Sequence record: NC_049817.1
DNA length: 51,277 nt
Source: Escherichia phage tonnikala
Strand: one strand, 5' to 3'
A model generated the notes under the pieces. That model made no database searches and had not been told where the DNA came from. It saw nothing but the letters and a program-made list of their open reading frames with translations. This document shows, piece by piece, positions 1 to 51,277 of this stretch (the first letter of the stretch is position 1; the number at the start of each line of letters is the position of its first letter). The position numbers and the translations under genes were made by a program.

Positions 1-541
1 CATGCACCAGGTGACAAGGTAGCGCGTGAATGTATCGACCATCCTTGACGCCGCAATCATAATGACAATCTTCCGGCGGATATATCCCCTCATAAACGCT
101 TAAGGGTGTGCGATCGAATTTTAATGTTTTTGCCATCACTTTTTCGCAGCATTCATGACTTGCCTGTTTCCCGAACGAGTAGCCAGAAGAACGTGAAGCG
201 CGCTTGTTTGCTCTGATCCTGTAATCTTGTGGCACTTTGCCGAGGAAGCGGCCCAAAATGTTGATGGCCTCGCTGTAAGGTTCGCCAGTTAATTTCATTA
301 ACCAACCGATCCCTGTGTCGTTACCGCATACGTTGCAGATCGCGCCGCCGTCGCCCTCTTCATTTAGCTTATCAGTCCATCTAAAACGATCCTTACCGCC
401 GCAGTGTGGGCAAGGCTGATGCTTTTTGTTGAAAACATCGCTATGCAGTCCGCAAATGCTTTGTAGTGCTTCACGCCATAACCCCTTCATATATGGCAAA
501 ACATCTTCTTTCTGATAGGTCATAAAGTTTTCAGTATTCAT
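1..541 (-). CDS. DNA primase, N-terminal zinc-binding domain (partial; gene continues past window start)
   Basis: Open minus-strand frame from ATG at 539-541 to window edge, not in ORF track. Translation begins MNTENFMTYQ and has CPHCGG...CNVCG zinc-ribbon cysteines typical of primase-helicase zinc-binding domains. Confidence 0.6.
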   Translation of the reverse strand, partial: MNTENFMTYQKEDVLPYMKGLWREALQSICGLHSDVFNKKHQPCPHCGGKDRFRWTDKLNEEGDGGAICNVCGNDTGIGWLMKLTGEPYSEAINILGRFLGKVPQDYRIRANKRASRSSGYSFGKQASHECCEKVMAKTLKFDRTPLSVYEGIYPPEDCHYDCGVKDGRYIHALPCHLVH

Positions 542-1159: not shown

Positions 1160-3157
1160 ATGATTCCAAATATCGAAAAACAAATATCAGCGTTAGGCGA
1201 GGCAGTAATAAAAAGCATCCAAGAGCGATTCACGGTTGGCAATATAGTGCCTTATCCTTATCAGTGCGTTGCGTATGCCGAGATCGCAAAGCGCATGAAA
1301 AACTATGAGCATCCTTTCTTTGTTAAGGCTTCTGTGTCGGCTGGCAAAACATTGATGTTTGCGATGGTTGCTGCGCAATGCCGCAAAATGGGATTGAAAA
1401 TGATGGTCCTTGCTCGCCAGGCTGAAATTGTTGATCAGGATTCGGAAGAGATCAGCAATCTTGGCGTGCCAAACTCAATCTATTGCGCCGGACTGAAAAC
1501 AAAAAGCGCATACTTTCCGATCGTAGTCGGTTCTGAGGGCACTGTAGTAAACGGATTGTTTAAGTCGTTAGGTGATTATGTTCCGCACGTTATCGGTATT
1601 GATGAATGTCACCAGGTGGATTGGGAGGATCTCGCCGACGCGATAGAAAATAATGAATCTTACCAGCAGATGACCACTAAGAAGGATTTGCCTGTACTGA
1701 TTGGAGAAGAACAGCAATTTGATTCCAATGGCGATCCAATGTTCGGAACAGGGCGCACACAGTACACCGTAATAATCATGGAAATGATGCGCAGGTGTCG
1801 CGAGGCATACGGGCACGAATTGCGAATATTCGGTATGACTGGATCTGAGTTTCGCGGCGTGGTTCCAATACTGGTCGAAGATAAGAACAAAAAGGGATTC
1901 TGGCGTGAGCAGGTGACTAACATAGACACAAACTACTTAATCAAATTTGGTTCGGTAGTGCCAACAAATTTCGGCGACGTAGGCGACCTGGGGTATGACC
2001 TTTCAGAGTTCGAAGCCAGTAGCGAGGATGGCGTTTCAGACTTTGACGCTAAAACATTGCGCAAGATGGAAGAAAAAATCCATCAAGACGCAACAATGAC
2101 ACAGAAAATCATGGCTAAAGTCCATGAGATATGCAAAGACAGGAACGGAGTTTTAGTTACATGCGCAGGGGAAAGACATTGCAAGGAGGCCGCCGCCGCA
2201 CTGCCGCAAGGCGTTGAATACAGGATCATAACTGGCAAAACTGGAGATAATCAGCGTAAAGAGTGGCTGAGGGAGGCATACGAGGGGAAAGTAAAATACA
2301 TCTTCCAGGTACAGGCGCTTACCACTGGCGTTAACGTTCCGTTTTGGGATACTTCGGTAATACTGAGAAAGATAGGATCTCTAACATTGCTTATCCAGCT
2401 TTTGGGGCGCGGTATGCGACTGCTTAAGCAATGGCACATTGAGCAGGGATTCAAGAAAAAAGACCATCTTGTATTGGATTTTGCCGGTACTATGGATGAG
2501 TTAGGGGATTTGTATTTCGATCCAATCCTTGAGCAAGCGCAATTCCAAAAGAGATTTACAAACGGGAAAGAGCCTAAGACTTGTCCGATATGTGGAACGC
2601 TAAACAGCTTTTACGCTCGCCGATGTATGCACGTAGACGATAACGGGAAGAGATGCGAGCATTTTTGGACTTACAGAATTTGCGAGGACCAGGTAGATCC
2701 GAGAACGAAAAAGATAATCAAGCGCGGTTGCGGAACAAAAAACGACGTAGTGGCGAGAGTTTGCCGTTGTTGCGATATTTCTCTTGTCGATCCTAACGAG
2801 AAGTTAAGCGGTAAGCACTACACCAAAAACGATTGGTGCAACGTTAAATCTTTCCGCGTTGATATGACGAAAAACCAGAAAGGAATTGTTTTTTGCTATG
2901 AGCTTGAGGCCAACGGCGACACGTTCAAGGCATACGAAAGATTTTTCCCTGAGTCAGAAAGCAACATTTGCCGGACGATATGGAGAAAAATAGCATTGCA
3001 GCACATACCGGATCGCAAGATTGCTGGTATGGTGGCGAGCTATAGAAATGCGCGTAAAATAATGTCATACGCTCATCACATCATGCCTCCTGTACGCGTA
3101 ACGCATCGCAAAAACGGCAAAGGTGAGGATAACATTGCAAAACGGGAGTTTGTTTAA
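1160..3157 (+). CDS. SF2 DNA helicase with C-terminal zinc-finger region
   Basis: 665 aa; Walker A SAGKT, motif II GIDECHQ, C-terminal CPICG...C...C cysteine clusters. Confidence 0.8.
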   Translation: MIPNIEKQISALGEAVIKSIQERFTVGNIVPYPYQCVAYAEIAKRMKNYEHPFFVKASVSAGKTLMFAMVAAQCRKMGLKMMVLARQAEIVDQDSEEISNLGVPNSIYCAGLKTKSAYFPIVVGSEGTVVNGLFKSLGDYVPHVIGIDECHQVDWEDLADAIENNESYQQMTTKKDLPVLIGEEQQFDSNGDPMFGTGRTQYTVIIMEMMRRCREAYGHELRIFGMTGSEFRGVVPILVEDKNKKGFWREQVTNIDTNYLIKFGSVVPTNFGDVGDLGYDLSEFEASSEDGVSDFDAKTLRKMEEKIHQDATMTQKIMAKVHEICKDRNGVLVTCAGERHCKEAAAALPQGVEYRIITGKTGDNQRKEWLREAYEGKVKYIFQVQALTTGVNVPFWDTSVILRKIGSLTLLIQLLGRGMRLLKQWHIEQGFKKKDHLVLDFAGTMDELGDLYFDPILEQAQFQKRFTNGKEPKTCPICGTLNSFYARRCMHVDDNGKRCEHFWTYRICEDQVDPRTKKIIKRGCGTKNDVVARVCRCCDISLVDPNEKLSGKHYTKNDWCNVKSFRVDMTKNQKGIVFCYELEANGDTFKAYERFFPESESNICRTIWRKIALQHIPDRKIAGMVASYRNARKIMSYAHHIMPPVRVTHRKNGKGEDNIAKREFV

Positions 3158-3576
3158 TGGCTATAACTGATAAAGGCGATTATCTTGAGTTTTACGAAAG
3201 GGATCCAACCGACACGAGAAGGGAAGTTAATCACCAGATAGATAGTTTTCAGTGGTTGACTTATGCTCATCCTTATTTGCTGGCGTGGCATACGGTAAAC
3301 GAGAATGAGAAGTCTAAAGTAACGGCGATGATTGATCAGCAGTCCGGCTTGGTTAAGGGAGTAAGCGATTTCATCATCCTGATTGGTTTAAACGGAAAAT
3401 ACCCCTTTGCAGCGATTGAGATCAAACGAGTGAATAAATCAGGCAAGGGGAAAGCATCACCAGTCAGCGATGAACAAAAGGCTTTTTTGCGTCGCGTTCG
3501 CAGCTTAGGAGGATTCGCTGCGGTAGCCTACGGATTCAATCAGTTTAAGTTGGCTATTGAATACATGCTTAAATAG
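3157..3576 (+). CDS. VRR-NUC domain nuclease (PD-(D/E)XK fold)
   Basis: 139 aa; D...EIK core (DFIILIG...AAIEIKR); start overlaps helicase stop (TAATG). Confidence 0.6.
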   Translation: MAITDKGDYLEFYERDPTDTRREVNHQIDSFQWLTYAHPYLLAWHTVNENEKSKVTAMIDQQSGLVKGVSDFIILIGLNGKYPFAAIEIKRVNKSGKGKASPVSDEQKAFLRRVRSLGGFAAVAYGFNQFKLAIEYMLK

Positions 3577-3592: not shown

Positions 3593-3656
3593 TGGCGCGA
3601 TGGATTGCGCCATAATTCAATAACACGAGATGGCTTTTAATAGCGGAGAAATGAAA

Positions 3657-4382
3657 ATGGCTAAAGATATTTTAGATAAAGACACCCATGACGCATTCGT
3701 TAGCTTTGAGCAGTTGGAGAGAGAAACGTTTATAGGGAATGCCCTTGCAACTGGAGGCCATTACCAGGCAGTAAAGCCAAATCAATATTATAAGGTAAGC
3801 GGAAACCGATACGCTGGAAGCACTACGCCGGACGTTGTGCGCGATATGTGGAGTACGCCTCAAGAGATCGTGGAGTGGATGGAATCAGAATTTGGTGAAT
3901 ACGATCTCGACGCGGCAGCAAGCCAGGAAAACGCAGTTTGCGAGAAGTTCTATAGCAAGGAGACAAACTGCTTAAAGCGGTGGTGGGGTAGCAACAAGCA
4001 CGTATGGCTTAACCCGCCGTACAGCAACCCAACTCCATTTATCAAGAAAGCAATTGAGCAAATGGAGCACAACAACCAAATTGATGTTTTGTTGCCAGCA
4101 GACAACTCTACAGCATGGTTTTATGAGGCGCAAAAAAACGCGGCTGAAATCATCTGGATCACTGGCGAGGTTTACGAAGAGGGTGGAGTAGAATACTCCC
4201 GCACCGGAAGAATCGCCTTTGTGTCTGGATTGACTGGCGAGCCTGTGCAGGGCAACAATAAGGGAAGCGTGATTTTTGTCATGCGCAAACTTAAAGAAGG
4301 CGAGGAGCAGAAAACGCGATACGTTAAGATCAGCGATATTTGCCCTTCTGTAACCGAACGCCGCGCTCGCAAACGGAGCTAA
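3657..4382 (+). CDS. DNA N6-adenine methyltransferase (phage Dam family)
   Basis: Catalytic NPPY motif (HVWLNPPYSN); RBS GGAG 8 nt before ATG at 3657 (track ORF starts at 3630). Confidence 0.8.
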   Translation: MAKDILDKDTHDAFVSFEQLERETFIGNALATGGHYQAVKPNQYYKVSGNRYAGSTTPDVVRDMWSTPQEIVEWMESEFGEYDLDAAASQENAVCEKFYSKETNCLKRWWGSNKHVWLNPPYSNPTPFIKKAIEQMEHNNQIDVLLPADNSTAWFYEAQKNAAEIIWITGEVYEEGGVEYSRTGRIAFVSGLTGEPVQGNNKGSVIFVMRKLKEGEEQKTRYVKISDICPSVTERRARKRS

Positions 4383-7596: not shown

Positions 7597-7779
7597 TTAT
7601 TCGATACGCTTTACAGTAACCAACAAAACGCCGTCTTCATCACACAAATTATGCTCTGATATATCAAACGCTCGCATGTCAGAATGAATGAGCGTTAACA
7701 TTGCGTGCATGAAGTCGTCATGTGAGATTTGAGAAGTGGCGCAAAATTTAAGAATTTCATCTATCAGTTTACTTTCCAT
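7597..7779 (-). CDS. hypothetical small protein
   Basis: Minus ORF; start trimmed to internal ATG (MESKL...) to reduce overlap with HNH gene; no good RBS seen. Confidence 0.3.
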   Translation of the reverse strand: MESKLIDEILKFCATSQISHDDFMHAMLTLIHSDMRAFDISEHNLCDEDGVLLVTVKRIE

Positions 7780-8242
7780 GATTTTTGTGGTAGCCAAATT
7801 TAACCTCCGCCTGTTCCCTTGCCTTAATTGCATCATCAAGACTTAAAAAATATCCTAAATGCACGCTCTTACCGTTATCATATATAGTTGCGTGCCATCT
7901 TTTGTTTTTCTTATTCCAGCAAACACCAACTCGACCAGAGTTATTTCTTTTTAGTAGAGATACGTTTTTGCTGTTATCTAATCTTGATGCAAGCCTTAGA
8001 TTTTCAATTCTGTTATCGCTCCTATTGTGCCATATATGGTCTATTTCCATTCCTTCTGGTATTTTTCCATTGTGCATTTCCCATATTATCCTATGCGCCA
8101 AAAACAATACACCATTATACCTTATTCTCACATATCCATTTTCACATACACATCCCGCAACGCTTCCAGGCTTTGCTTTCCCTCTTCTGTTTCTCCATCT
8201 CAATATTCCATTGTCATATATAAATACTTCATTCCAATCCAT
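7769..8242 (-). CDS. HNH homing endonuclease with AP2-like DNA-binding domain
   Basis: 157 aa; HNH core EIDHIWHNRSDNRIENLR; C-terminal AP2-like segment; gene lies in a visibly AT-rich stretch. Confidence 0.75.
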   Translation of the reverse strand: MDWNEVFIYDNGILRWRNRRGKAKPGSVAGCVCENGYVRIRYNGVLFLAHRIIWEMHNGKIPEGMEIDHIWHNRSDNRIENLRLASRLDNSKNVSLLKRNNSGRVGVCWNKKNKRWHATIYDNGKSVHLGYFLSLDDAIKAREQAEVKFGYHKNHGK

Positions 8243-8624
8243 ATCTTTTCCTTAGAGCTTTTATTTGTTGTCTATTAGCTTTTGCCTGGAACAATTCATC
8301 ATCGCCCATCTCCCCTATTCTCGCCATATCCCTGATCCAGTCGTTGCGCATACCATCCAGGCTATACAATTCGAATCCGAAAGGCCGCTTTGACGATCCT
8401 TTGGACCAGTATTTTCCGCAGACCCCATCTATATAACCAGCCGTCATCATTCTTGCGCAAAATTCCTTAGATGCAAGGCTGGCGAACATTCGCGGCGTAA
8501 GTCCGGCGGCCCGCGCGAGCCGCTCGCATTCTCTATGCTGATAGATAAATTTGGCTATGTGCTGCCTGTTAAACCAGTCGTATGACTCACACCATTTATA
8601 CAGATCAAGCAAAAACATAATCAT
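8229..8624 (-). CDS. hypothetical protein
   Basis: 131 aa; start overlaps upstream gene stop (ATGA). Confidence 0.5.
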   Translation of the reverse strand: MIMFLLDLYKWCESYDWFNRQHIAKFIYQHRECERLARAAGLTPRMFASLASKEFCARMMTAGYIDGVCGKYWSKGSSKRPFGFELYSLDGMRNDWIRDMARIGEMGDDELFQAKANRQQIKALRKRYGLE

Positions 8625-10201
8625 CCCAGCAGTATTGGATTGACAAAAATAACACCATTAATCACGCAAACATAATTTCTTTCTTCCAGCATTGGCAGCA
8701 AGTGCCCCTCTATCCTCTTCATTACGCCAGCCTGACCAACGAAAGGTTTTACCTTTCTCGCTGATTCGTACAGGGCGCGGATATTCAGAATCCCTTTATT
8801 AGCCTTGCCGTGTCTAGTGATCAATTCAATCAATTTACCCATTTCAGCATCATCACCAGCATAACCAGAAGCATTGGCGGCGCTAATGTATGTTTTGCTC
8901 AATTCCTGAAACATGATCAGCGCCTCTTGCATTGTTTCCACGTCGATCTCTTTCAACTTCTGCGGGTATCCGGCAGGATTAAACCAGTTGCGGATAACAT
9001 GCAGGACGGAAGCAAGCCTGATCACCTGTTTATCCATTTTACCCAGCGCACCGCGTAACATTGTATGAGAATACTTTCCGCCGTCTGCAAGATGCGGTTC
9101 CATATCCTGGCGAGCAATGTTGAGCACTCGCATAGCTGAACGGCTTATTTTCAGCGATATATTTGATTCGCTCATGATGTTATGCACCAATTGATAATAT
9201 TGGGCCTTCAATTCAGGATCCACCGCCTCATAGGTAGAATCACCATTTTCATCAATGAATGAGCGACGGCCTAAGAATGATTCCTCACGGACCAACAAAA
9301 AGCGCTCACTCACACCGATACCGCGCGATCCAGCGTCCATGATTCCGCTTATCGTTTCATCCTGGGCTATAACGCTCATACATCCAAGCGCGCGAAAACT
9401 CATGTTATTGTCAGCATTAGCACGGGCAATTGATACGTGACCATTATCCCACGCCTTAAGCACTAGCTCACTGTTAGTCTTCCTTTCGCTATTGGCATAG
9501 GTCAAGCCTAACAGACTGTTAATACTTGTTGCTTCGTCAGATATTACGGCAAAGTTACCTTGCTTGTTGTTGATTTTTGCCAAGCCTTCTGGAGTTGTAT
9601 CTGAAACAGGGAAAGTTATATCACACATCTTTTCCAGCTTCTCCTCCAGATCCTCTTTTTCCTGGTATAGAGATTCCATATCAGCGCCTGATCTTTCGCT
9701 TTTCATCTCCTTTGCAAGACCTGCCAACTTTGCCTGTATTTTCTTTCTTTCCTTGCGGCGTTGCTCGTTGATCTTCTCAACTTCCGCAATCATCGGAGCA
9801 ATAGCCATACTGTTGATCGCAGATTTACCAGTTGACGGCGGCTGGCTTGTAACGACGTAAAGCGCAGTCGGCTGATCGGTCCCGTGATAGTCAACCGTAA
9901 AGCGTCCAAGCATGGCGGCAGAAATGCAGCCGATAAAGTGCATGTAAGCCGATGATTCAGGGAATTGAACGGATCGCGCAATACTGCGTGATAACTTTCC
10001 GACAACATCAATATCATTACCAAGAGAAATTACGGGGTAGCGATCGTGACCGCTATTTACATCCTTCACGTCGCCCCAAAAGCTGGACGACTGGCGATAG
10101 CCGTTAGCCTGAATTGATACGCGAACTGGTGAAAGGTTCTGGCTTTCAGCCATAGCGATTATTTGCTGTGGAGTTAATTTGTTCGTTTCTAATGAAAACA
10201 T
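8621..10201 (-). CDS. P-loop NTPase, putative replication-associated protein (DUF3987-like)
   Basis: 526 aa; Walker A-like SQPPSTGKS and Walker B-like VISDEATS; AAGGAG RBS 10 nt upstream of ATG. Confidence 0.45.
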   Translation of the reverse strand: MFSLETNKLTPQQIIAMAESQNLSPVRVSIQANGYRQSSSFWGDVKDVNSGHDRYPVISLGNDIDVVGKLSRSIARSVQFPESSAYMHFIGCISAAMLGRFTVDYHGTDQPTALYVVTSQPPSTGKSAINSMAIAPMIAEVEKINEQRRKERKKIQAKLAGLAKEMKSERSGADMESLYQEKEDLEEKLEKMCDITFPVSDTTPEGLAKINNKQGNFAVISDEATSINSLLGLTYANSERKTNSELVLKAWDNGHVSIARANADNNMSFRALGCMSVIAQDETISGIMDAGSRGIGVSERFLLVREESFLGRRSFIDENGDSTYEAVDPELKAQYYQLVHNIMSESNISLKISRSAMRVLNIARQDMEPHLADGGKYSHTMLRGALGKMDKQVIRLASVLHVIRNWFNPAGYPQKLKEIDVETMQEALIMFQELSKTYISAANASGYAGDDAEMGKLIELITRHGKANKGILNIRALYESARKVKPFVGQAGVMKRIEGHLLPMLEERNYVCVINGVIFVNPILLG

Positions 10202-10253
10202 TCGTTAGCTTCTCCTTTGTGGGCCGTAAATTTTAACGGCCCAATACTACCCC

Positions 10254-10272
10254 GTTTTGTCAAAAAGTGCTA
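10254..10272 (-). promoter_or_regulatory. conserved intergenic motif copy (minus orientation, variant)
   Basis: Reverse complement reads TAGCACTTTTTGACAAAAC; TAG is the stop codon of the 10270..10491 gene. Confidence 0.4.
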
Positions 10273-10491
10273 TTTGATCCGCTCTATTGCAACCAGAAGT
10301 CGATCAGGCTGGCGGTCGCTGTAGCATTCTCCTGTAATCCCATCCTTAAACGTAAAGTAAAGCGCCTTATGATATGAAAAACCAATCAGCCAACCTACCG
10401 CCGTTTTTTTGATGGGCCTGACTATATCGCCAGGCTTGAAAGTCTTTGTGGTAGAATGCGTTACTTTGTAACGGTTTTCACTGTTTATCAC
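10270..10491 (-). CDS. hypothetical protein
   Basis: 73 aa; 4-nt overlap with upstream gene. Confidence 0.45.
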   Translation of the reverse strand: MINSENRYKVTHSTTKTFKPGDIVRPIKKTAVGWLIGFSYHKALYFTFKDGITGECYSDRQPDRLLVAIERIK

Positions 10492-10874
10492 AGATATTTA
10501 CCCTCAAAAAGATAACAGCCGCCAGCAGAGAATCCGACCTCTTCACGGTACAGGTTCCAGCGGTCGCCGCACTCATCAAAAACATAACCCGCAACGCTTC
10601 CAAGCGGTCGCCCTTTCTCGATCTGGTATCGCTTGCCCTGCTTAAAGTGCTTTTTGCAAGGCATGTTATGATCTACAAACGTGCAAAGAACGGTTTTTGT
10701 GTTAATGGCGCGGTAATCATCTCGGTTTGCTGGAAGCCAGCGGCTACCCTTAACAAGCGTCTTAACCTGGAACTCTTCCACCTCGATCACATCATCACTT
10801 CCTGCAATCTTCTGATAAACCGTTTTAAAACGGCCTTTCATCAATACGTTGGTTTCATTACAGATAACATTCAT
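10488..10874 (-). CDS. hypothetical protein
   Basis: 128 aa minus-strand ORF in the early block. Confidence 0.5.
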   Translation of the reverse strand: MNVICNETNVLMKGRFKTVYQKIAGSDDVIEVEEFQVKTLVKGSRWLPANRDDYRAINTKTVLCTFVDHNMPCKKHFKQGKRYQIEKGRPLGSVAGYVFDECGDRWNLYREEVGFSAGGCYLFEGKYL

Positions 10875-10927
10875 GATCAGATCTCCTTTGTTTGTTCGAT
10901 GTGATTATGCCAGGTTTTTACACCTGG

Positions 10928-10946
10928 CTTTTAACAAAAAGTGCTA
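10928..10946 (-). promoter_or_regulatory. conserved intergenic motif copy (minus orientation)
   Basis: Reverse complement TAGCACTTTTTGTTAAAAG; overlaps stop of the methyltransferase-like gene. Confidence 0.4.
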
Positions 10947-11654
10947 TTTTGAGTTTGACTCAAAGATGGCGCGAGCAAAGCCGCGCGGAGTGAGGGAGCG
11001 GATCATCTTTGTGCGCGATGACTTACCGCCAGTTTTGGCCCAGCCTGGATTATCTTTGTCTTCCTCTTTCGGCAGGATTAAAGCGCGCGGAGGAATAACA
11101 AAGCCGTTGCCAGTCCAGAGGCACGTTTTCTTAAAATAGCGATCCCGTGCCGGAATAATATCAGGGAAGTCGGGATGTTTATCATCTTCCGGCAGATAGC
11201 CAGCGTAATCGCACGGATGGAACGTATAATCAGGCTTACGCCATAACGTTGACAACTTGCCAACCGGATTTTCGATCATGTAAGGAACACCGAAATAATC
11301 AGCTATATCAGCCGCGATTCTGCAAGTGTCGGCGGCCTCATCCTGGAATGATGGATTCTCAAGGCGTTTTTTGGCCCAATGGCGAGATCCGCTATTTGCA
11401 AGGTCGGTGCATGGTGGGAAGGCCATAATAAAATCAGGATTGCCCCACTCATTATTGATTGCCTTAACATAAAAAGCATCATCAATCCAGACGTTAACGT
11501 ATTCGATATTCTCATGCTGTATGCGCACTGACTGGTAATCACCGTGATCGCCACCGTCAGCATTAAAGCAAATGCACTTATAGCCATTATCAGCCCAATC
11601 TTTAACGGCTTTACCAGATCCATCAAATAGGGAGAATATTAAACCTTTATACAT
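10944..11654 (-). CDS. DNA C5-cytosine methyltransferase-like protein (short, atypical)
   Basis: Motif I-like SLFDGSG, catalytic Pro-Cys (AFPPCTD), ENV-like MIENPVG; start set at MYKG with GAGG RBS. Confidence 0.55.
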   Translation of the reverse strand: MYKGLIFSLFDGSGKAVKDWADNGYKCICFNADGGDHGDYQSVRIQHENIEYVNVWIDDAFYVKAINNEWGNPDFIMAFPPCTDLANSGSRHWAKKRLENPSFQDEAADTCRIAADIADYFGVPYMIENPVGKLSTLWRKPDYTFHPCDYAGYLPEDDKHPDFPDIIPARDRYFKKTCLWTGNGFVIPPRALILPKEEDKDNPGWAKTGGKSSRTKMIRSLTPRGFARAIFESNSK

Positions 11655-11664
11655 CGTCATTACC

Positions 11665-11889
11665 TCAAAACGGAAAACAGCGCGCACAACCAGGATCGAA
11701 ATCGCATCCACAATCATTAACAATCATAGTGGGATCTGCAAATATTGCGCTTGATTCAAGATCCATATCCATATCACCTAAAGCCTCATCAAGAGTCTTA
11801 ATTTTATATGCCACTTCAAGCGCCGCCTCTTTATTTAGTCCGGCATCTTCTGCCATTTGAAGGCGCTCAAAAAAACCGTCTTGACTCAT
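11665..11889 (-). CDS. hypothetical acidic protein
   Basis: 74 aa; acidic, Cys-rich C-terminus. Confidence 0.45.
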   Translation of the reverse strand: MSQDGFFERLQMAEDAGLNKEAALEVAYKIKTLDEALGDMDMDLESSAIFADPTMIVNDCGCDFDPGCARCFPF

Positions 11890-14936: not shown

Positions 14937-14994
14937 TGCTATCTCCTGAGCGGTTCGTTTCGATGTGTGTAATGTACCCGATCAGGTGGCCTGA

Positions 14995-15013
14995 GTTTTA
15001 ACAAAAAGTGCTA
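14995..15013 (-). promoter_or_regulatory. conserved intergenic motif copy heading the leftward early operon
   Basis: Reverse complement TAGCACTTTTTGTTAAAAC, then 18 nt, then TACATT (-10-like), then RBS and ATG at 14936. Confidence 0.45.
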
Positions 15014-15036
15014 TTTGACGGTTAGCGCCAGGATTG

Positions 15037-15135
15037 TGATCGAAATAATCAGAAGTAATCATTCGTAATCGAATCACGTCAAAATGATGATTGCCTTTGC
15101 AAATTTGATGAGAAAAGTAATCACGTTTAATCATT
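15037..15135. repeat. iteron-like cluster of TAATC-containing short repeats
   Basis: TAATC pentamer five times in about 90 bp (GTAATCA, CGTAATC, GTAATCACG, TTAATCA), beside the divergent promoter hub. Confidence 0.35.
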
Positions 15136-15569
15136 GGTTGCAGGGGAGATAGTGAAACCTTCCCCTCTTGCCTCACTTTTCCGCCTGGCTGTCAGTGGCT
15201 GTTGTCTTTTGTTCGCCCCTGTTACCGATTTCAGGCGGCGTGTTTCCGCGAGGTTTTCCGGTGTAGCGAAAACGGAAAAAACAAAAAAAATCCTATATAA
15301 TACATTGAAAATAAAGATTATTTATTTATATATATCTATAATGTTTTCTTTTTGTTCTCACTGTTACAGTGCTTTTTGCTGGGTGTGGTGTGGTTGTGTG
15401 TTGGTATATATGGATAGTTGCGCGCGCGGCGGATTGCATATGTATATATACTTTTTCCGGCGGATTGCGTTAACAGCGTGAACAGAAAAATAACAGCCCT
15501 GAAATCAACAACTTGCGCATGATTTTGTAGTTTTTCGATATTGGTAACGTTTTGAATACAACAAAAACA

Positions 15570-15597
15570 TTGACACGCACCAAATAGCTTTTATAAT
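15570..15597 (+). promoter_or_regulatory. sigma-70-type promoter for rightward early operon
   Basis: TTGACA (15570-15575), 16-nt spacer, TATAAT (15592-15597); about 30 nt upstream of the first rightward gene. Confidence 0.55.
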
Positions 15598-15628
15598 GCG
15601 CCAACAGTCAACAACTGGAGGAAAGGAA

Positions 15629-24192: not shown

Positions 24193-24720
24193 ATGGCTAA
24201 AAATGTTGAGCCTGCTGTAAAGGCATTAAATTTCAAAGAGTTATATAATAAAACCTATGGCGATATTGTTACGCTAAACAACCGCCACAAGTACACGCCG
24301 GAACAGGTTTTTGATATGGCGATCCGCTATTTCACTTGGGCCGAAGAGAATCACATCCAGGCGGCTGAAACTGCCTCCTTTCAGGGTGACGTGTACGAGA
24401 GCAGGGTTTACAAGCCTCGCGTTTTCACGGTAAACGGATTCAGCTTGTATCTCGGCGTTACTGAGGCGGCTGTAAGCAAGTGGCGTAAAGAGCCTGGATT
24501 CTGCGATGTGATGGAGTTTGTTGATAAAGTAATTTACGAGCAAAAATTCCAGCTTGCGGCAAACAACATGATTAACGCTGGATTTATCGGTAAAGAGATC
24601 GGAGTAGAGAAGCCAGCAACAGTGAGCGTTGAAGCGAGCGCGGCAGCTAATGCAAGCATTGACGCAGTAACTGCCGATGAGGTGAAAGAGGCTGTGATTG
24701 ATATTCTGGAGCAACTTTAA
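24193..24720 (+). CDS. terminase small subunit
   Basis: Start at MAKNVEP with AAGGAGG RBS; immediately upstream of and overlapping the large terminase. Confidence 0.6.
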   Translation: MAKNVEPAVKALNFKELYNKTYGDIVTLNNRHKYTPEQVFDMAIRYFTWAEENHIQAAETASFQGDVYESRVYKPRVFTVNGFSLYLGVTEAAVSKWRKEPGFCDVMEFVDKVIYEQKFQLAANNMINAGFIGKEIGVEKPATVSVEASAAANASIDAVTADEVKEAVIDILEQL

Positions 24721-26288
24721 TGATCATATGGGAAGATTTGACGGCGGCGCAAAAGCGAGCCATTAAAGAAATCAGTGAGCATTCATTCGAAAAGATGATC
24801 AGAATCTGGTTCCAATTATTGCAGGGGCAAAAATTCCAGAGCAACTGGCATTTTAGCTTATTGTGCAGTGAGGTAGAGAAGATCATCAATGGAGAGTCGC
24901 AGAATGTGATTTTCAACATTACGCCAGGTAGCGGCAAGACTGAGATTTTCTCGATCCACATGTCACCCTACGCGTCATTGAAAAGCCGGAAAGTGAGAAA
25001 CCTTAACCTTTCGTTTAGTGATGGCCTTGTCCAGCAAAACAGCAACCGGATAAAGGAGATTATTGGTTCTCCTGAGTGGCAAGAGCTATGGCCTGGAAAA
25101 CTGGCAAAGGCGAGCGCTAAAGATCTGATAGTCACCGAAGGCGGCAAGGTTAAATTGCAAGTTAACTCACGTTCTATTGGCGGCCAGGTAACAGGTTTGC
25201 GTGGCGGCTATATGGATGATGGTTTTACTGGTATGCTGGTTCTTGACGATCCAGACAAGCCGGATGACATGCTTTCTAAGGTCAAGCGCGAGGCTATTCA
25301 CATGCGGTTAAAAAACACAGTGCGATCGCGTCGAATGAAAGACACCACGCCAATCGTTATGGTGCAACAGCGACTACACGTTAATGATTCCACTTGGTTC
25401 ATGCTTAATGGCGGGATGGGTGGTATTGAGTTTAAAGTCGTGAGCATTCCGGCGCTGGTTACGAAAGAATACCGCGAAACGCTTCCTGATTGGTTGAAGT
25501 CTGAATTTGATCGTGATGTGCTGTCAAGTAAGCCAGTGATGATAGATGGTGTTGCTCATTATTCATTTTGGCCTGCGAAGGAAAGCGCGGAGGAGTTGCT
25601 CGCATTGCGCAATGCAGATCCTTACACGTTCGCCAGCCAATACCAACAGCAACCAATCGCGCTGGGCGGGAACGTGTTTAAAACAGAGTGGTTCCAGTAT
25701 TACGGCAGCGGCGAAAAATGCGCACTTCCTAAACCGGATCGCTTTGAATACACATTTATTACTGGAGATACCGCGCAGAAGGCCGGAGAGCTTAACGACT
25801 ATTCAGTTTTTTGTTATTGGGGGATGTATAAGAATCGCGTTTACTTCATTGATGGCATTCGCGGAAAGTGGGAAGCGCCGGATCTTGAATTAAATTTTAT
25901 TGCCTTCGTTAACCAGTGCTGGAAGCGCAATAAGGAGTGTGGCAGCTTGCGACGTATCCACATTGAGGATAAGGCCAGCGGCACGGGTTTGATTCAGGGG
26001 GCCAAAAAGAAGATCCAGATTGATATAAATCCCGTTCAGCGAAGCAATGACAAGGTAACGCGAGCAATGGACGCCGCGCCAGTGATGAGGGCAGGACGTG
26101 TGGCGCTGCCAGAAAATCACCCAATGCTGCCTGAGATACTGGCAGAGGTTGCAGCATTCACTTTTGATGATTCTCATCCCCATGATGATATTGTCGATAA
26201 TATAGTTGATGCTGTTAACGTCGAAATGAATTTGGCAGATGATCCGGTAGCAAGGATGAAAAAGCTGGCAGGTCTACGCAATAAATAG
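24720..26288 (+). CDS. terminase large subunit
   Basis: 522 aa; Walker A-like ITPGSGKTE in N-terminal ATPase region; precedes portal. Confidence 0.8.
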   Translation: MIIWEDLTAAQKRAIKEISEHSFEKMIRIWFQLLQGQKFQSNWHFSLLCSEVEKIINGESQNVIFNITPGSGKTEIFSIHMSPYASLKSRKVRNLNLSFSDGLVQQNSNRIKEIIGSPEWQELWPGKLAKASAKDLIVTEGGKVKLQVNSRSIGGQVTGLRGGYMDDGFTGMLVLDDPDKPDDMLSKVKREAIHMRLKNTVRSRRMKDTTPIVMVQQRLHVNDSTWFMLNGGMGGIEFKVVSIPALVTKEYRETLPDWLKSEFDRDVLSSKPVMIDGVAHYSFWPAKESAEELLALRNADPYTFASQYQQQPIALGGNVFKTEWFQYYGSGEKCALPKPDRFEYTFITGDTAQKAGELNDYSVFCYWGMYKNRVYFIDGIRGKWEAPDLELNFIAFVNQCWKRNKECGSLRRIHIEDKASGTGLIQGAKKKIQIDINPVQRSNDKVTRAMDAAPVMRAGRVALPENHPMLPEILAEVAAFTFDDSHPHDDIVDNIVDAVNVEMNLADDPVARMKKLAGLRNK

Positions 26289-45306: not shown

Positions 45307-45677
45307 CTTGTTATTTTTTGTTTTTCGGTGTTATCGAATTTAAGACGGCGTAAATTTAGCTCAAATTTTAGCCAACATGAGAGCGATAAACAATCAATAA
45401 AATAGATATATACATATAAAATCAATAGTTTATTTATTTATGTATGTATATTTGTTTTTTCTTGTTATCTGTGTTTCTTGTGGTTTTGGTTGTTTGTGGT
45501 GATTTTTCTTTCTGAGTATCTGTATGTGCCATCATTCATGTGTATGTATATAATCCGGCGTATCTGAGAGAACAAAGGGAACAAGAAAAATAACACATAT
45601 TAATCATTGACTTACATTTCAAATTTGTTTTCTTGCAATCTAAGAACGTTTAGAAAACAGAAAAAACAAAACAACTA

Positions 45678-45735: not shown

Positions 45736-46791
45736 ATGAGTGATTTTAACGCCTACACTAGCGAAGAAATGAGCAATGAGCTTTATCATGATCCTAACGC
45801 GTGGACGGCTGAATACGTCAGCGGTTCCAGCTTGGCGGAGATTTACAGCACTTGCCCGGCGTACTGGAAGTACAAGCCTCGCCAGGAAACTAAGGCACTT
45901 GTTTTCGGTACGCAGTCGCATACCAATTTTGAAAGCAAGGAGTTATTCGAAAAAACATATCGCCGCGCACCGTCGCAGGATGATTTTAAAGATCTGATCA
46001 CAAGTCAAACGGCGTTAGCCTCAAAGCTGAAATCTTTTGGCCTGAAAGGTACAACGGGTAAGCAATACCCAGAATTGCTGGAAATGCTGTACAAGTGCGG
46101 TGAGGATCTCAATGTATGGTGGCTTATCGAAATGATGGCAGAATGCCAGGCCGCAGCGGACGGCGTGCAGTTAATCGACGCGAAAGATTATGATGCCTGT
46201 GTAGCGATGCGGCGCGTACTTGAGGCAATACCTGAGCATAATGCTTGCATGAATAGCCCAACCGCGCAGCGTGAAATGTCAATATTCGGGATCATCAATG
46301 GCGTAAAAGTTAAAGTGCGCCTTGATCACGTTGACGTAAACAAGGATGTAAAGGCCACAATCATTAACGGTTACGACGAAAAAGGCCGACCGATTTATGA
46401 AGAAGTCATCTATCCAGAAGCTGTGATTATCACTGACTATAAAACAACGGTTAGCGCAAATCCGGTTGACTTCCAGCGCCTGGCTTACAATCACGGCTAT
46501 TATCTCAAAATGGCTTTGCAGCATGATTTATTTAAAAAGGCGTATCCAGACGAGGAAAGGCCAGTAATTGTGAGATTGCTTGCTCAAGAGAAGAAAGAGC
46601 CTTACTTGCCGCTCGCATTCCGCATGAACATTGAGCAATTGAAGATCGGGCGTATCCAGTACATGAGCGTGATCAACAAGTTCAACGTTTGCCAACAGTT
46701 AGATGAATGGCCTTCGTATGCAAACGGGCAGCCAGAAATTGATCTTGATACTCCTGATTGGGTGCGCGCTCAATTCAGGCAGTATCTATGA
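45736..46791 (+). CDS. PD-(D/E)XK-family exonuclease (RecE/exonuclease VIII-like)
   Basis: 351 aa; D...E-x-K style core (VIITDYKTT); encoded just upstream of Erf and SSB. Confidence 0.5.
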   Translation: MSDFNAYTSEEMSNELYHDPNAWTAEYVSGSSLAEIYSTCPAYWKYKPRQETKALVFGTQSHTNFESKELFEKTYRRAPSQDDFKDLITSQTALASKLKSFGLKGTTGKQYPELLEMLYKCGEDLNVWWLIEMMAECQAAADGVQLIDAKDYDACVAMRRVLEAIPEHNACMNSPTAQREMSIFGIINGVKVKVRLDHVDVNKDVKATIINGYDEKGRPIYEEVIYPEAVIITDYKTTVSANPVDFQRLAYNHGYYLKMALQHDLFKKAYPDEERPVIVRLLAQEKKEPYLPLAFRMNIEQLKIGRIQYMSVINKFNVCQQLDEWPSYANGQPEIDLDTPDWVRAQFRQYL

Positions 46792-46866
46792 CAAACTAAA
46801 CAAATAGCTAAACTTTTATAATGGTTGGTGATATAATTCGCCAACCAGATAACGGGAGAATGAGAG

Positions 46867-47124
46867 ATGACAGATAAAGACAATGCCACATTATTGCATT
46901 TAGAGCGATTCATTGATCGAGTAACCATTGCAATGAAAGAATTTATTAAGCCGATGAACATTAAAGAGTCGGAAGAAATGAAGACTTACATCAAGGACGT
47001 GGTTGCATCCATTGACAACGTTATCCTTGTTGCAACGATGAGCAAGGGAAACAAAGAGCGCGAGAGATTGGTTGCTGAATCAACAGAAGAATTTATTAAA
47101 ATGCTTGAAAGCGAGAAGGAATAA
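46867..47124 (+). CDS. hypothetical protein
   Basis: 85 aa between exonuclease and Erf. Confidence 0.45.
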   Translation: MTDKDNATLLHLERFIDRVTIAMKEFIKPMNIKESEEMKTYIKDVVASIDNVILVATMSKGNKERERLVAESTEEFIKMLESEKE

Positions 47125-47781
<657 letters not shown>

Positions 47782-47786
47782 TAAAC

Positions 47787-47806
47787 GGGGCGCTTGCGCC
47801 CCTTTT
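47787..47806 (+). terminator. terminator-like hairpin
   Basis: GGGGCG-CTTG-CGCCCC then TTTTGTCA. Confidence 0.4.
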
Positions 47807-47824
47807 GTCATAGGAGAAAACAAA

Positions 47825-48271
47825 ATGCACGTTATTACAGGTGAGATCCGAAAAGAGCCAAAAGTAAAGCAAATGCCTAACGGTAGCACGCTATATGTTG
47901 TTGAGCTTTCCGAACGATATAAAGACCGTGAAGGCAATTGGCAGTATACAAACTATGTATTTTTCTTTAACGCGAAAACAGACGGCCTGAATGGTTGGTA
48001 TGCTGAGGCGTTCCAGGTAGGCAAGGTTATTTCTGTTTCCTGCGATACCTTGCGAGTTGAAACGCGAGAATACAACGGAAAGATTTACAGCACCGTGCAG
48101 CCTGGCGGATTTGCAAACTTGCTATTTAGCCAGCGTGGGGAAAGCCAGCAACAATATCAGCAGCGCACTCAAGGTGGATGGGGGCAACCACAACAGCAAC
48201 AAATCCCTCAACAGCAACCACAGCAAAGCAATCAGCCGCCGATTGACTTTGATGACGATATACCTTTCTGA
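47825..48271 (+). CDS. ssb: single-stranded DNA-binding protein
   Basis: OB-fold-like N-terminus, Gln/Pro-rich linker and acidic tip DFDDDIPF; AGGAG RBS before ATG at 47825. Confidence 0.8.
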   Translation: MHVITGEIRKEPKVKQMPNGSTLYVVELSERYKDREGNWQYTNYVFFFNAKTDGLNGWYAEAFQVGKVISVSCDTLRVETREYNGKIYSTVQPGGFANLLFSQRGESQQQYQQRTQGGWGQPQQQQIPQQQPQQSNQPPIDFDDDIPF

Positions 48272-50888: not shown

Positions 50889-51277
50889 TTATAGCAGTGA
50901 TTCGGGCTTGTAGAGTTTTCTTTCTACGCCCTGTTTAAAATTATCGTTAACAGGCATCATTATGTCAAGACCTCTTTCCTCTGCCGCGATTATCACATCA
51001 CGATCATCCTTCCGGCAGACTACGCGCATTCTTCTTTCTCCTTTATATCTATGCGCAACCATTTCAAGATTTGAAGGAGTAAAGCAAGCCCACACCTCTT
51101 GACCAGTTGATAAATGAACATGCTGGGAATCAACCCAATCAAGGCACAAATAGATCGTCTTATCCGTGCTACCTGTTTTAACAACAGATCCGCGCGTGTA
51201 GTCGCGAGCTAAAAACCAATCCTTTCCATCCTCATCAATGAAAAGCACGTTACACATTTCATCATCCACCAGGTGAC
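50889..51277 (-). CDS. hypothetical protein (5' end may lie beyond window)
   Basis: Open minus frame to window edge; track start at 51269 is GTG; internal ATG at 51255-51257. Confidence 0.4.
   Translation of the reverse strand, partial: HLVDDEMCNVLFIDEDGKDWFLARDYTRGSVVKTGSTDKTIYLCLDWVDSQHVHLSTGQEVWACFTPSNLEMVAHRYKGERRMRVVCRKDDRDVIIAAEERGLDIMMPVNDNFKQGVERKLYKPESLL

What the first reader, a model, noticed from the sequence alone, without database searches (positions are those of the whole stretch)
8621..10201. Large P-loop protein in the leftward early block
The 526-aa protein has Walker A and B-like motifs but does not read as a classic helicase. Its size and position resemble primase-associated NTPases. 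With the partial primase at the window start and the SF2 helicase, the replication machinery looks split across three loci.
Basis: partly seen in the sequence, partly recalled or inferred. Interest (0 to 1): 0.4.

Follow-up and report, generated by a model that had tools for sequence, protein, structure and literature searches.

The report
MCM-like replicative helicase of T1-like phage
The 526-residue P-loop protein is the known DUF3987-family "DNA helicase" found in all T1-like coliphages, a ring-motor ATPase whose fold is closest to the archaeal/eukaryotic MCM helicase; it is most likely the phage's replication-fork helicase, so the finding is real but ordinary.

The parts
8621..10201 (-). 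Gene for the 526-aa DUF3987-family AAA+ helicase (ortholog of phage T1 ST9)
   Evidence: ORF. Pfam PF13148, 149 bits against a 27-bit cut-off, residues 81-430. PHROG 2373 'DNA helicase', E=3e-243. T1 ST9 matches the family profile at E=9e-166.
10212..10217 (-). Shine-Dalgarno sequence AAGGAG, 10 nt upstream of the ATG
   Evidence: Read directly from the sequence.
9911..10201 (-). N-terminal all-helical domain (aa 1-97); no OB fold or zinc finger as in MCM
   Evidence: AF2 secondary structure H11-21, H25-33, H36-41, H66-78, H82-97.
9272..9910 (-). AAA+ alpha/beta core (aa 98-310)
9818..9847 (-). Walker A / P-loop SQPPSTGKSA (K126)
   Evidence: K126 is invariant in 137 relatives.
9617..9820 (-). 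Long charged helical hairpin inserted directly after the P-loop (aa 128-195; helices 126-168 and 172-191)
   Evidence: AF2 model, block pLDDT 84-97 over aa 121-200. 14 K/R and 15 D/E in 68 residues. This is the main difference from MCM. Its role is unknown.
9530..9556 (-). Walker B NFAVISDEA (D222, E223)
   Evidence: Strand 217-221 followed by D-E. E223 is invariant; D222 is replaced by A in some relatives.
9386..9445 (-). Beta-hairpin before strand 4 (aa 253-272), equivalent in position to the MCM pre-sensor-1 hairpin, carrying invariant R260
   Evidence: AF2 strands 255-258 and 267-270. R260 invariant. The DNA-binding role is inferred.
9353..9385 (-). Strand 4 plus candidate sensor-1 motif GCMSVIAQDET (Q280)
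   Evidence: AF2 strand 273-279. I278-A-Q-D-E282 invariant among T1-like relatives. A279 and Q280 are at least 90% conserved family-wide.
9284..9322 (-). GIGVSERFLLVRE: candidate arginine finger R300 (resembles the MCM 'SRF' motif) at the start of strand 5
   Evidence: G296 and R300 invariant in 137 relatives. Strand 301-305. Action in trans is inferred.
8972..9229 (-). Helical lid domain (aa 325-410) with LRGALGKMDK (R383, invariant K388) as candidate sensor 2
   Evidence: AF2 helices 329-343, 354-371, 380-387, 389-405. K388 invariant.
8624..8791 (-). C-terminal winged-helix domain (aa 471-526)
8229..8624 (-). Translationally coupled 131-aa partner gene (ATGA stop/start overlap); small winged-helix protein, ortholog of T1 ST10
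50889..51277 (-). C-terminal part of the phage primase gene (continues at window 1-541 across the circular junction)
   Evidence: The joined ORF gives a 309-aa protein. Zn_Ribbon_Prim, E=4.8e-15. Same gene order as FritzSarasin and T1.
1..541 (-). N-terminal part of the phage primase gene (start codon at 541-539)
1160..3157 (+). SF2 helicase, RadD-like; probably an accessory fork-repair or recombination helicase and not the fork helicase
   Evidence: ResIII + Helicase_C. PDB RadD 6jde, E=8.4e-40.
3157..3576 (+). VRR-NUC nuclease; its start shares base 3157 with the end of the SF2 helicase gene
   Evidence: PF08774, E=6e-10.
45736..48271 (+). Recombination and ssDNA module: RecE-like exonuclease (45736-46791), Erf annealase (47128-47781), SSB (47774-48271)
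   Evidence: PHROG and Pfam hits.

Best explanation
The gene encodes the replicative DNA helicase of a T1-like phage. It is a DUF3987-family AAA+ ATPase whose motor domain has the MCM-type fold.

Proposed mechanism:
- Subunits assemble into a ring, presumably a hexamer.
- ATP binds at subunit interfaces through the P-loop (K126) and Walker B (E223).
- ATP is hydrolysed with the help of a trans-acting arginine finger (R300, in an MCM-like S-E-R-F motif) and sensor residues (Q280; R383/K388).
- A beta-hairpin carrying invariant R260 projects into the central channel and moves single-stranded DNA.
- The C-terminal winged helix, and possibly the translationally coupled 131-aa winged-helix partner, bind DNA or partner proteins during loading.

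The phage has no DNA polymerase. The helicase would therefore work with the phage's own zinc-ribbon primase and SSB and with the host Pol III holoenzyme, taking the place of host DnaB.

Shown here: family membership, the fold, conservation of the catalytic residues, and the link to primases in relatives. Inferred: ring assembly, the role of each residue, the replicative role in this phage, polarity and the loading route.
For: - Pfam DUF3987, 149 bits against a 27-bit cut-off. PHROG 2373 'DNA helicase', E=3e-243 over the full length.
- AF2 model with pLDDT 86.8 and pTM 0.84.
- Foldseek: all top 50 PDB hits are MCM.
- Invariant K126, E223, R260, G296, R300 and K388 among 137 relatives at 21-36% identity to the query, and the same six plus M1 and T203 among 71 relatives.
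- Relatives fuse the module to a DnaG CHC2 zinc ribbon, a DnaB N-terminal domain or an NrS-1 polymerase domain.
- In distant phages the gene is contiguous with a DnaG-type primase, an SF2 helicase, a RecE-like exonuclease and SSB.
- The gene is present at full length in 909 phage records, so it is a core gene.
- TLS and T1 are reported to have no apparent DNA polymerase genes (PMC11447400), and T1's annotation lists none.
- The only other helicase in the window is RadD-like.
- Literature: DUF3987 predicted as an SF6 replicative helicase with a C-terminal wHTH (PMC4889955). The PriCT-DUF3987 protein AgaPH unwinds DNA 5'->3', and its Walker A and B mutants are inactive (PMC11724360).
Against: - I found no experiment on this protein or on any T1-like ortholog in the paper library.
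- The sequence-level link to MCM was not reproduced. There is no Pfam MCM hit at E<=1, and hhalign against an MCM alignment gave a probability of 1.5-3.2%. The relationship therefore rests on a predicted structure.
- In this genome the primase is about 8 kb away and is not adjacent.
- No origin-like iterons lie next to the gene.
- The MCM N-terminal OB/zinc domain is absent.
- Polarity is uncertain: 5'->3' in AgaPH but 3'->5' in MCM, Cch and SaPI Rep.
Confidence: 0.8

Rival explanations
1. It is an MCM-fold motor used for recombination or repair (branch migration, D-loop processing), like ComM or MCM8/9, and not the fork helicase. Under this reading phage replication uses host DnaB or the SF2 helicase.
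Against: Fusions to primase and DnaB N-terminal domains in relatives and direct adjacency to a DnaG-type primase in a distant phage point to fork function. The SF2 enzyme is RadD-like, and RadD is a repair accessory helicase. The replicative MCM2-7 and archaeal MCM chains score highest.
Confidence: 0.1
2. It is mainly an origin-binding initiator or self-loading initiator-helicase, like SaPI Rep. Its own C-terminal winged helix, with or without the 131-aa winged-helix partner, recognises an origin and melts it. This is a variant of the best explanation and not an exclusive alternative.
For: C-terminal winged helix. Translationally coupled winged-helix partner. No separate initiator gene was recognised in the region. 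SaPI Reps combine an AAA+ helicase with a winged-helix domain that reads iterons (PMC9371898).
Against: There is no iteron cluster next to the gene or anywhere obvious. The k-mer scan found only weak clusters at 27.1 kb and 45.4 kb. MCM winged-helix domains are mostly protein-interaction modules (established knowledge).
Confidence: 0.25
3. It is a primase-associated NTPase without helicase activity, for example a loader or clamp-like regulator.
For: The family was annotated 'unknown function' in Pfam. No assay exists for T1-like orthologs.
Against: A DUF3987 protein has ATP-dependent unwinding activity that is lost in Walker A and B mutants. The model has a full motor set, including a channel hairpin with an invariant arginine. 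Loader-type proteins (Cdc6/ORC) match over only about 80-96 aligned residues, consistent with the winged helix alone.
Confidence: 0.04
4. It is a non-replicative ATPase: a terminase, a transporter, or a defence or counter-defence protein.
For: None beyond the presence of a P-loop.
Confidence: 0.01

Closest known systems
DUF3987 (PF13148) helicases, e.g. AgaPH (the PriCT-DUF3987 protein of a Seonamhaeicola mobile element) and phage T1 ST9
   Same: Same Pfam family, same Walker A/B signature, C-terminal small winged-helix domain, and functional link to a primase. T1 ST9 is a direct ortholog. AgaPH was shown to be an ATP/dATP-dependent helicase.
   Different: This protein has a 97-aa helical N-terminal domain in place of AgaPH's PriCT domain. 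Its partner primase is of the zinc-ribbon P4-alpha/DnaG type and not an AEP PrimPol, and it is encoded about 8 kb away. No biochemistry exists for the T1-like clade.
MCM helicases (archaeal MCM, eukaryotic MCM2-7, MCM8/9; SF6, AAA+ pre-sensor-II-insert clade)
   Different: No detectable sequence similarity in my tests. No OB-fold or zinc N-terminal domain. A roughly 70-residue charged helical hairpin follows the P-loop. Sensor 1 would be Gln rather than Asn. The reported polarity of a family member is 5'->3', opposite to MCM.
Phage N4 gp43 (which I take to be the N4 'dns' protein of PMC4889955, described there as essential for N4 replication)
   Same: Near full-length alignment to the DUF3987 model (residues 39-376), together with a primase-associated domain (PriCT_1). 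PMC4889955 states that dns is essential for replication and is a DUF3987 member.
   Different: It scores 24.2 bits, below Pfam's 27-bit cut-off, and is not detected by my T1-clade profile. In N4 the helicase part is fused N-terminally to the primase part; here the two are separate genes. I did not verify that gp43 is the dns gene product.
Self-loading MCM-like helicases of staphylococcal elements (SaPI Rep/PriRep, SCCmec Cch; DUF927)
   Different: They belong to a different Pfam family and score lower than MCM. SaPI Reps read iterons placed immediately downstream of rep, and no such iterons occur here. Their polarity is 3'->5'.
Bacterial DnaB / T7 gp4 (SF4, RecA fold), a functional analogue only
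   Same: Same proposed job: a ring helicase that works with a DnaG/Toprim-type primase and a Pol III-type replisome. One relative even carries the DnaB N-terminal domain in front of the DUF3987 module (P0181).

Membership tests
DUF3987 (Pfam PF13148) | Match to the family HMM above the curated gathering score | tested here: met
   149 bits against a 27-bit cut-off, E=2.6e-43, profile positions 3-350 of 364.
DUF3987 (Pfam PF13148) | Conserved Walker A (xPPSxGKS) and Walker B motifs | tested here: met
   Q120-P-P-S-T-G-K126-S127 and D222-E223. K126 and E223 are invariant in 137 relatives.
DUF3987 (Pfam PF13148) | [quoted passage not shown] 2016) | tested here: met
   [not shown]
DUF3987 (Pfam PF13148) | Association with a primase, either fused or encoded next to it | tested here: inconclusive
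   Not adjacent in this window: the primase is at 50889-51277 + 1-541, about 8 kb away on the circle. The feature is met in relatives: fusions to a DnaG zinc ribbon or an NrS-1 polymerase domain, and a primase immediately downstream in L004.
DUF3987 (Pfam PF13148) | ATP-dependent DNA unwinding | not testable with these tools
   Shown only for AgaPH (PMC11724360).
MCM family / SF6 (Pfam PF00493) | Sequence match to the MCM AAA+ profile | tested here: not met
   No PF00493 hit at E<=1. hhalign of a 71-sequence profile against a 20-sequence MCM alignment gave a probability of 1.5-3.2%, with only the P-loops pairing. The literature reports 98% HHsearch probability for a different DUF3987 member.
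MCM family / SF6 (Pfam PF00493) | AAA+ core and lid with the MCM-type fold | tested here: met
   [not shown]
MCM family / SF6 (Pfam PF00493) | Pre-sensor-1 beta-hairpin with a basic DNA-contacting residue | tested here: met
   Strands 255-258 and 267-270 lie immediately before strand 4, with invariant R260. The position was judged from secondary-structure order and not from a residue-level superposition.
MCM family / SF6 (Pfam PF00493) | Helix-2 insert | tested here: inconclusive
   Between Walker A and Walker B the model has a long helical hairpin (aa 126-191) that extends helix 1, and not an obvious hairpin inside helix 2. No coordinates were available to decide.
MCM family / SF6 (Pfam PF00493) | N-terminal OB-fold / zinc-binding domain | tested here: not met
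   The N-terminal 97 residues are all-helical. The sequence has no cysteine cluster.
MCM family / SF6 (Pfam PF00493) | 3'->5' translocation polarity | not testable with these tools
   The one DUF3987 member assayed is reported as 5'->3'.
DnaB-like SF4 helicases | RecA-type motor domain (Pfam DnaB_C) | tested here: not met
   [not shown]
SF3 helicases (P4 alpha, D5, E1/LTag) | SF3 AAA+ core as the best structural or sequence match | tested here: not met
   [not shown]
Terminase large subunit | Terminase ATPase plus RNaseH-like nuclease domains | tested here: not met
   No such hits for this protein. The window's terminase is at 24720-26288 (Terminase_6C).

The most novel reading that the evidence does not exclude
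This would be an MCM-fold ring helicase that has replaced DnaB in an otherwise bacterial-type replisome (Toprim/zinc-ribbon primase, host Pol III). It would translocate 5'->3' on the lagging-strand template, opposite to every structurally characterised MCM-clade replicative helicase, and would be loaded without DnaC with the help of its own winged helix and the coupled 131-aa winged-helix partner. The charged helical hairpin after the P-loop would then be a family-specific element tied to this altered mode of action.
Probability: 0.3. Interest if true: 0.55.

Novelty: already known. Interest (0 to 1): 0.18.

Why it matters
For annotation, the result settles which gene is the likely fork helicase of T1-like phages. 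It is this DUF3987 gene (T1 ST9) and not the RadD-like SF2 helicase that some genome papers single out. T1-like phages are common contaminants and phage-therapy candidates, and their replication proteins are frequent triggers or targets of bacterial defence systems. More broadly, the DUF3987 family is large (6,393 cluster representatives at 50% identity) and I found no solved structure for it. Only one member has been assayed, and its reported polarity is unexpected for an MCM-like fold. A genetically tractable coliphage would be a convenient model for resolving that question. None of this makes the gene in this window new.

Tried and rejected
- **PDB sequence and profile searches** with the protein and with a 20-sequence profile found nothing meaningful. 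No member of the family appears to have a solved structure.
- **NCBIfam and PADLOC** gave no hits.
- **Profile-profile comparison with MCM.** I built a real MCM alignment (A3) and compared it with DUF3987 profiles, with and without the helical insert and in local, low-MAC and global modes. Probabilities stayed at or below 3.2%, and only the P-loops paired. I therefore do not claim sequence homology to MCM from my own data.
- **Phage N4.** My T1-clade HMM did not detect N4 gp43. Pfam's model does, but below its threshold.
- **Origin search.** An 8-nt-seed repeat search around the gene and a genome-wide 6-8-mer clustering scan with a shuffled control found no iteron array near the gene.
- **Literature on T1 genetics.** Searches for host dna-gene dependence, essentiality or knock-downs returned nothing usable (one search failed on term length). 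From memory, T1 genes 1 and 2 are DNA-negative amber classes, but I could not verify this or map them to ST9, so I do not use it.
- **Defence-system papers** that mention Drexlerviridae helicases concern other proteins.
- **Pfam scan of all 137 relatives** exceeded the size limit. I relied on a 10-protein sample instead, and seven of those ten long relatives have N-terminal regions that Pfam does not recognise.
- **Residue-level superposition and hexamer modelling** could not be done, because no coordinates are exposed.

Full report
**1. The observation**

The ORF at 8621..10201 on the minus strand (526 aa, ATG start) is exactly as described. An AAGGAG Shine-Dalgarno sequence lies 10 nt upstream of the start codon. 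The stop codon overlaps the start of the next ORF in an ATGA arrangement.

The protein carries a P-loop, S119-QPPSTGKS-A128, and a Walker B strand, F217-AVISDE223. These are functional signatures and not chance matches. In an alignment of 137 relatives sharing only 21-36% identity with the query, the only invariant columns are K126, E223, R260, G296, R300 and K388. A cleaner 71-sequence alignment gives the same six plus M1 and T203.

**2. The genome**

The region is 98-99% identical to Escherichia phages brachmannus, tiwna, tonijn and FritzSarasin, which are Drexlerviridae of the genus Warwickvirus. One homolog is recorded from phage tonnikala on a contig of exactly 51,277 bp, the length of the window.

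The window is a circular permutation of a complete genome. Joining 50889-51277 to 1-541 restores an intact 309-aa primase with a Zn_Ribbon_Prim domain. The "partial primase" is therefore an artefact of where the window was cut.

**3. Family assignment**

- Pfam gives DUF3987 (PF13148) at 149 bits against a 27-bit cut-off, covering residues 81-430.
- PHROGs gives family 2373, "DNA helicase", at E=3e-243 over the full length.
- NCBIfam and PADLOC give nothing.
- A tblastn search finds the protein in 924 phage records, 909 of them near full length. They are variously annotated "DNA helicase", "putative helicase", "replicative DNA helicase" or "hypothetical protein".
- The ortholog in phage T1 is ST9, YP_003936.1 "DNA helicase", with a profile E-value of 9e-166.
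- An exhaustive profile search finds 6,393 cluster representatives at E<=1e-3, so the family is large.

**4. Fold**

No solved structure matches by sequence or by profile. An AlphaFold2 model built from a 20-sequence alignment is confident, with mean pLDDT 86.8 and pTM 0.84. In order, it shows:

- a helical N-terminal domain (aa 1-97);
- an alpha/beta core (about aa 98-310);
- a helical lid (about aa 325-410);
- two long helices;
- a winged helix (aa 471-526).

**5. Motif map**

This map combines the model's secondary-structure order with conservation. The role given to each residue is an inference.

| Element | Residues | Note |
|---|---|---|
| Strand 1, P-loop | 115-119, then K126 | Walker A |
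| Charged helical hairpin | 126-168 and 172-191 | Inserted directly after the P-loop |
| Strand 3, Walker B | 217-221, then D222-E223 | |
| Beta-hairpin | 255-258 and 267-270 | Carries invariant R260; same position as the MCM pre-sensor-1 hairpin |
| Strand 4 | 273-279, ending A279-Q280-D-E | Candidate sensor 1 |
| G296-V-S-E-R300-F | start of strand 5 | Resembles the MCM "SRF" arginine finger |
| L-R383-G-x-x-G-K388-x-D | in the lid | Candidate sensor 2 |

Differences from MCM are the lack of an OB/zinc N-terminal domain, the helical hairpin after the P-loop, and Gln in place of Asn at the sensor-1 position.

**6. A negative result that limits the claim**

I fetched real MCM sequences, aligned 20 of them and ran profile-profile comparisons against the DUF3987 profile. 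I tried this with and without the helical insert and in three alignment modes. Probabilities were 1.5-3.2%, and only the P-loops paired. The MCM relationship is therefore supported here by predicted structure only. The 98% HHsearch probability in the literature refers to another family member.

**7. Link to primases and to replication**

Among ten long relatives, three carry a recognisable N-terminal domain:

- one has a DnaG CHC2 zinc ribbon;
- one has an NrS-1 primase-polymerase helix-bundle domain;
- one has the DnaB N-terminal domain, which in DnaB is the primase-binding domain.

In a phage contig with a 39%-identical homolog, the gene order is DUF3987, DnaG-type primase, SF2 helicase, RecE-like exonuclease, all co-directional and contiguous. 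In another contig the order is DUF3987, SF2 helicase, an unannotated 222-aa gene, RecE-like exonuclease, AAA_24 and, after one small gene, SSB. The "three loci" in this window are thus a rearranged version of one replication-recombination module.

Phage N4 gp43, which I take to be the replication-essential dns protein cited in the literature, aligns to DUF3987 over residues 39-376 and carries a PriCT_1 domain. It scores just below Pfam's threshold, at 24.2 against 27 bits.

**8. The other helicase**

The 665-aa SF2 protein at 1160-3157 matches E. coli RadD at E=8.4e-40. Its gene ends at base 3157, where the VRR-NUC nuclease gene begins. That pairing suggests fork repair or recombination. A 2024 genome paper on the T1-like phage TLS names only this SF2 helicase and the primase as replication functions, and notes that T1 and TLS have no apparent DNA polymerase genes. 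The window also encodes a RecE-like exonuclease, an Erf annealase and SSB.

**9. Published knowledge**

- Kazlauskas et al. 2016 (PMC4889955) classified phage DUF3987 proteins as divergent SF6 helicases related to MCM, with a C-terminal wHTH and frequent primase association, and proposed that they are replicative helicases.
- Kazlauskas et al. 2018 (PMC5862659) listed DUF3987 among the ATPase domains that substitute for known helicases in primase fusions.
- A 2025 paper (PMC11724360) showed that the PriCT-DUF3987 protein AgaPH forms an oligomer, binds its PrimPol partner and unwinds 5'-tailed and forked DNA using ATP or dATP. Its Walker A and B mutants are inactive.
- SaPI Rep and Cch, which are MCM-like helicases of staphylococcal elements, run 3'->5' and use a winged helix to read iterons placed downstream of the gene.

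**10. Mechanism and what remains open**

The best-supported reading (confidence 0.8) is a ring-shaped AAA+ helicase that unwinds the phage replication fork. It would work with the phage primase, the phage SSB and host Pol III in place of DnaB.

**11. Verdict**

The gene is already annotated as a DNA helicase in public records of near-identical phages, and its family has been described, so the novelty class is "already known". Interest is low (0.18). What interest remains lies in the family's unsolved structure and its polarity, not in this locus.

Noticed in passing
[not shown]
   Followed up: partly
window 7769-8242 (-): An HNH_3 + AP2 homing-endonuclease gene overlaps the 3' end of the 131-aa ORF. 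Most near-identical relatives cover only 88% of the 5.5-kb query in 2-4 pieces, whereas phage brachmannus covers 99% in one piece, so I infer (the gap position was not checked) that this gene is the missing segment and is present only in brachmannus. T1 has a different HNH gene (ST8) directly upstream of its helicase gene, so homing endonucleases appear to insert repeatedly around this conserved gene.
   Followed up: partly
window 50889-51277 joined to 1-541 (-): The window is a circular permutation of a complete genome cut inside the primase gene. The joined ORF is a 309-aa zinc-ribbon primase. The window length equals the 51,277-bp contig recorded for phage tonnikala.
   Followed up: yes
window 1160-3576 (+): The SF2 helicase is RadD-like (PDB 6jde, E=8.4e-40), and its gene ends at base 3157 where a VRR-NUC nuclease gene begins. 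This looks like a fork-repair or recombination pair. A 2024 paper on the T1-like phage TLS treats this helicase as the replication helicase and does not mention the DUF3987 gene among its replication functions.
   Followed up: partly
window 10202-10269 and 10875-10943 (-): Two intergenic regions in the leftward block share one layout: AAATAGCACTTTTTG, then a GC-rich hairpin (for example 10220-10243), then CAAAGGAGA and the start codon. A third copy of the 13-mer lies inside ORF 10488-10874. The hexamers TTGACA/TTGTTA and TAAAAT/CATAAT are 22 nt apart, too far for a sigma-70 promoter. The function is unexplained; it could be an RNA processing or stability element, or a phage-specific signal.
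   Followed up: partly
window 14940-15600; 45361-45640: The divergent intergenic region at the head of the leftward block is 81% AT at 15271-15370, is rich in short direct and inverted repeats, and holds a perfect sigma-70 consensus promoter (TTGACA-16-TATAAT) at 15570-15597 (+). The other most AT-rich spot is 45361-45460, and the 200-bp window 45441-45640 next to it holds four copies of CAAGAAA, upstream of the RecE-like gene. Either could be an origin or a promoter hub.
   Followed up: no
phage records MG065640.1, MG065636.1 and about 19 others: About 20 records labelled 'Campylobacter phage' with host Campylobacter jejuni carry T1-like genomes whose helicase is 88% identical to this one. 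The host label looks doubtful; these may be coliphage contaminants.
   Followed up: no
window 3630-4382 (+) and 10944-11723 (-): The genome encodes two DNA methyltransferases. One is a Dam-type N6-adenine enzyme (Pfam Dam, E=1e-61). The other matches no Pfam model but belongs to PHROG 757 and is annotated Dcm-like C5-cytosine methylase in relatives.
   Followed up: no
helicase aa 128-195 (window 9617-9820, -): A roughly 70-residue charged helical hairpin follows directly after the P-loop. It is modelled with high confidence and appears conserved in the roughly 500-aa family members (alignment consensus). I know of no counterpart in MCM. Its function is unknown.
   Followed up: no
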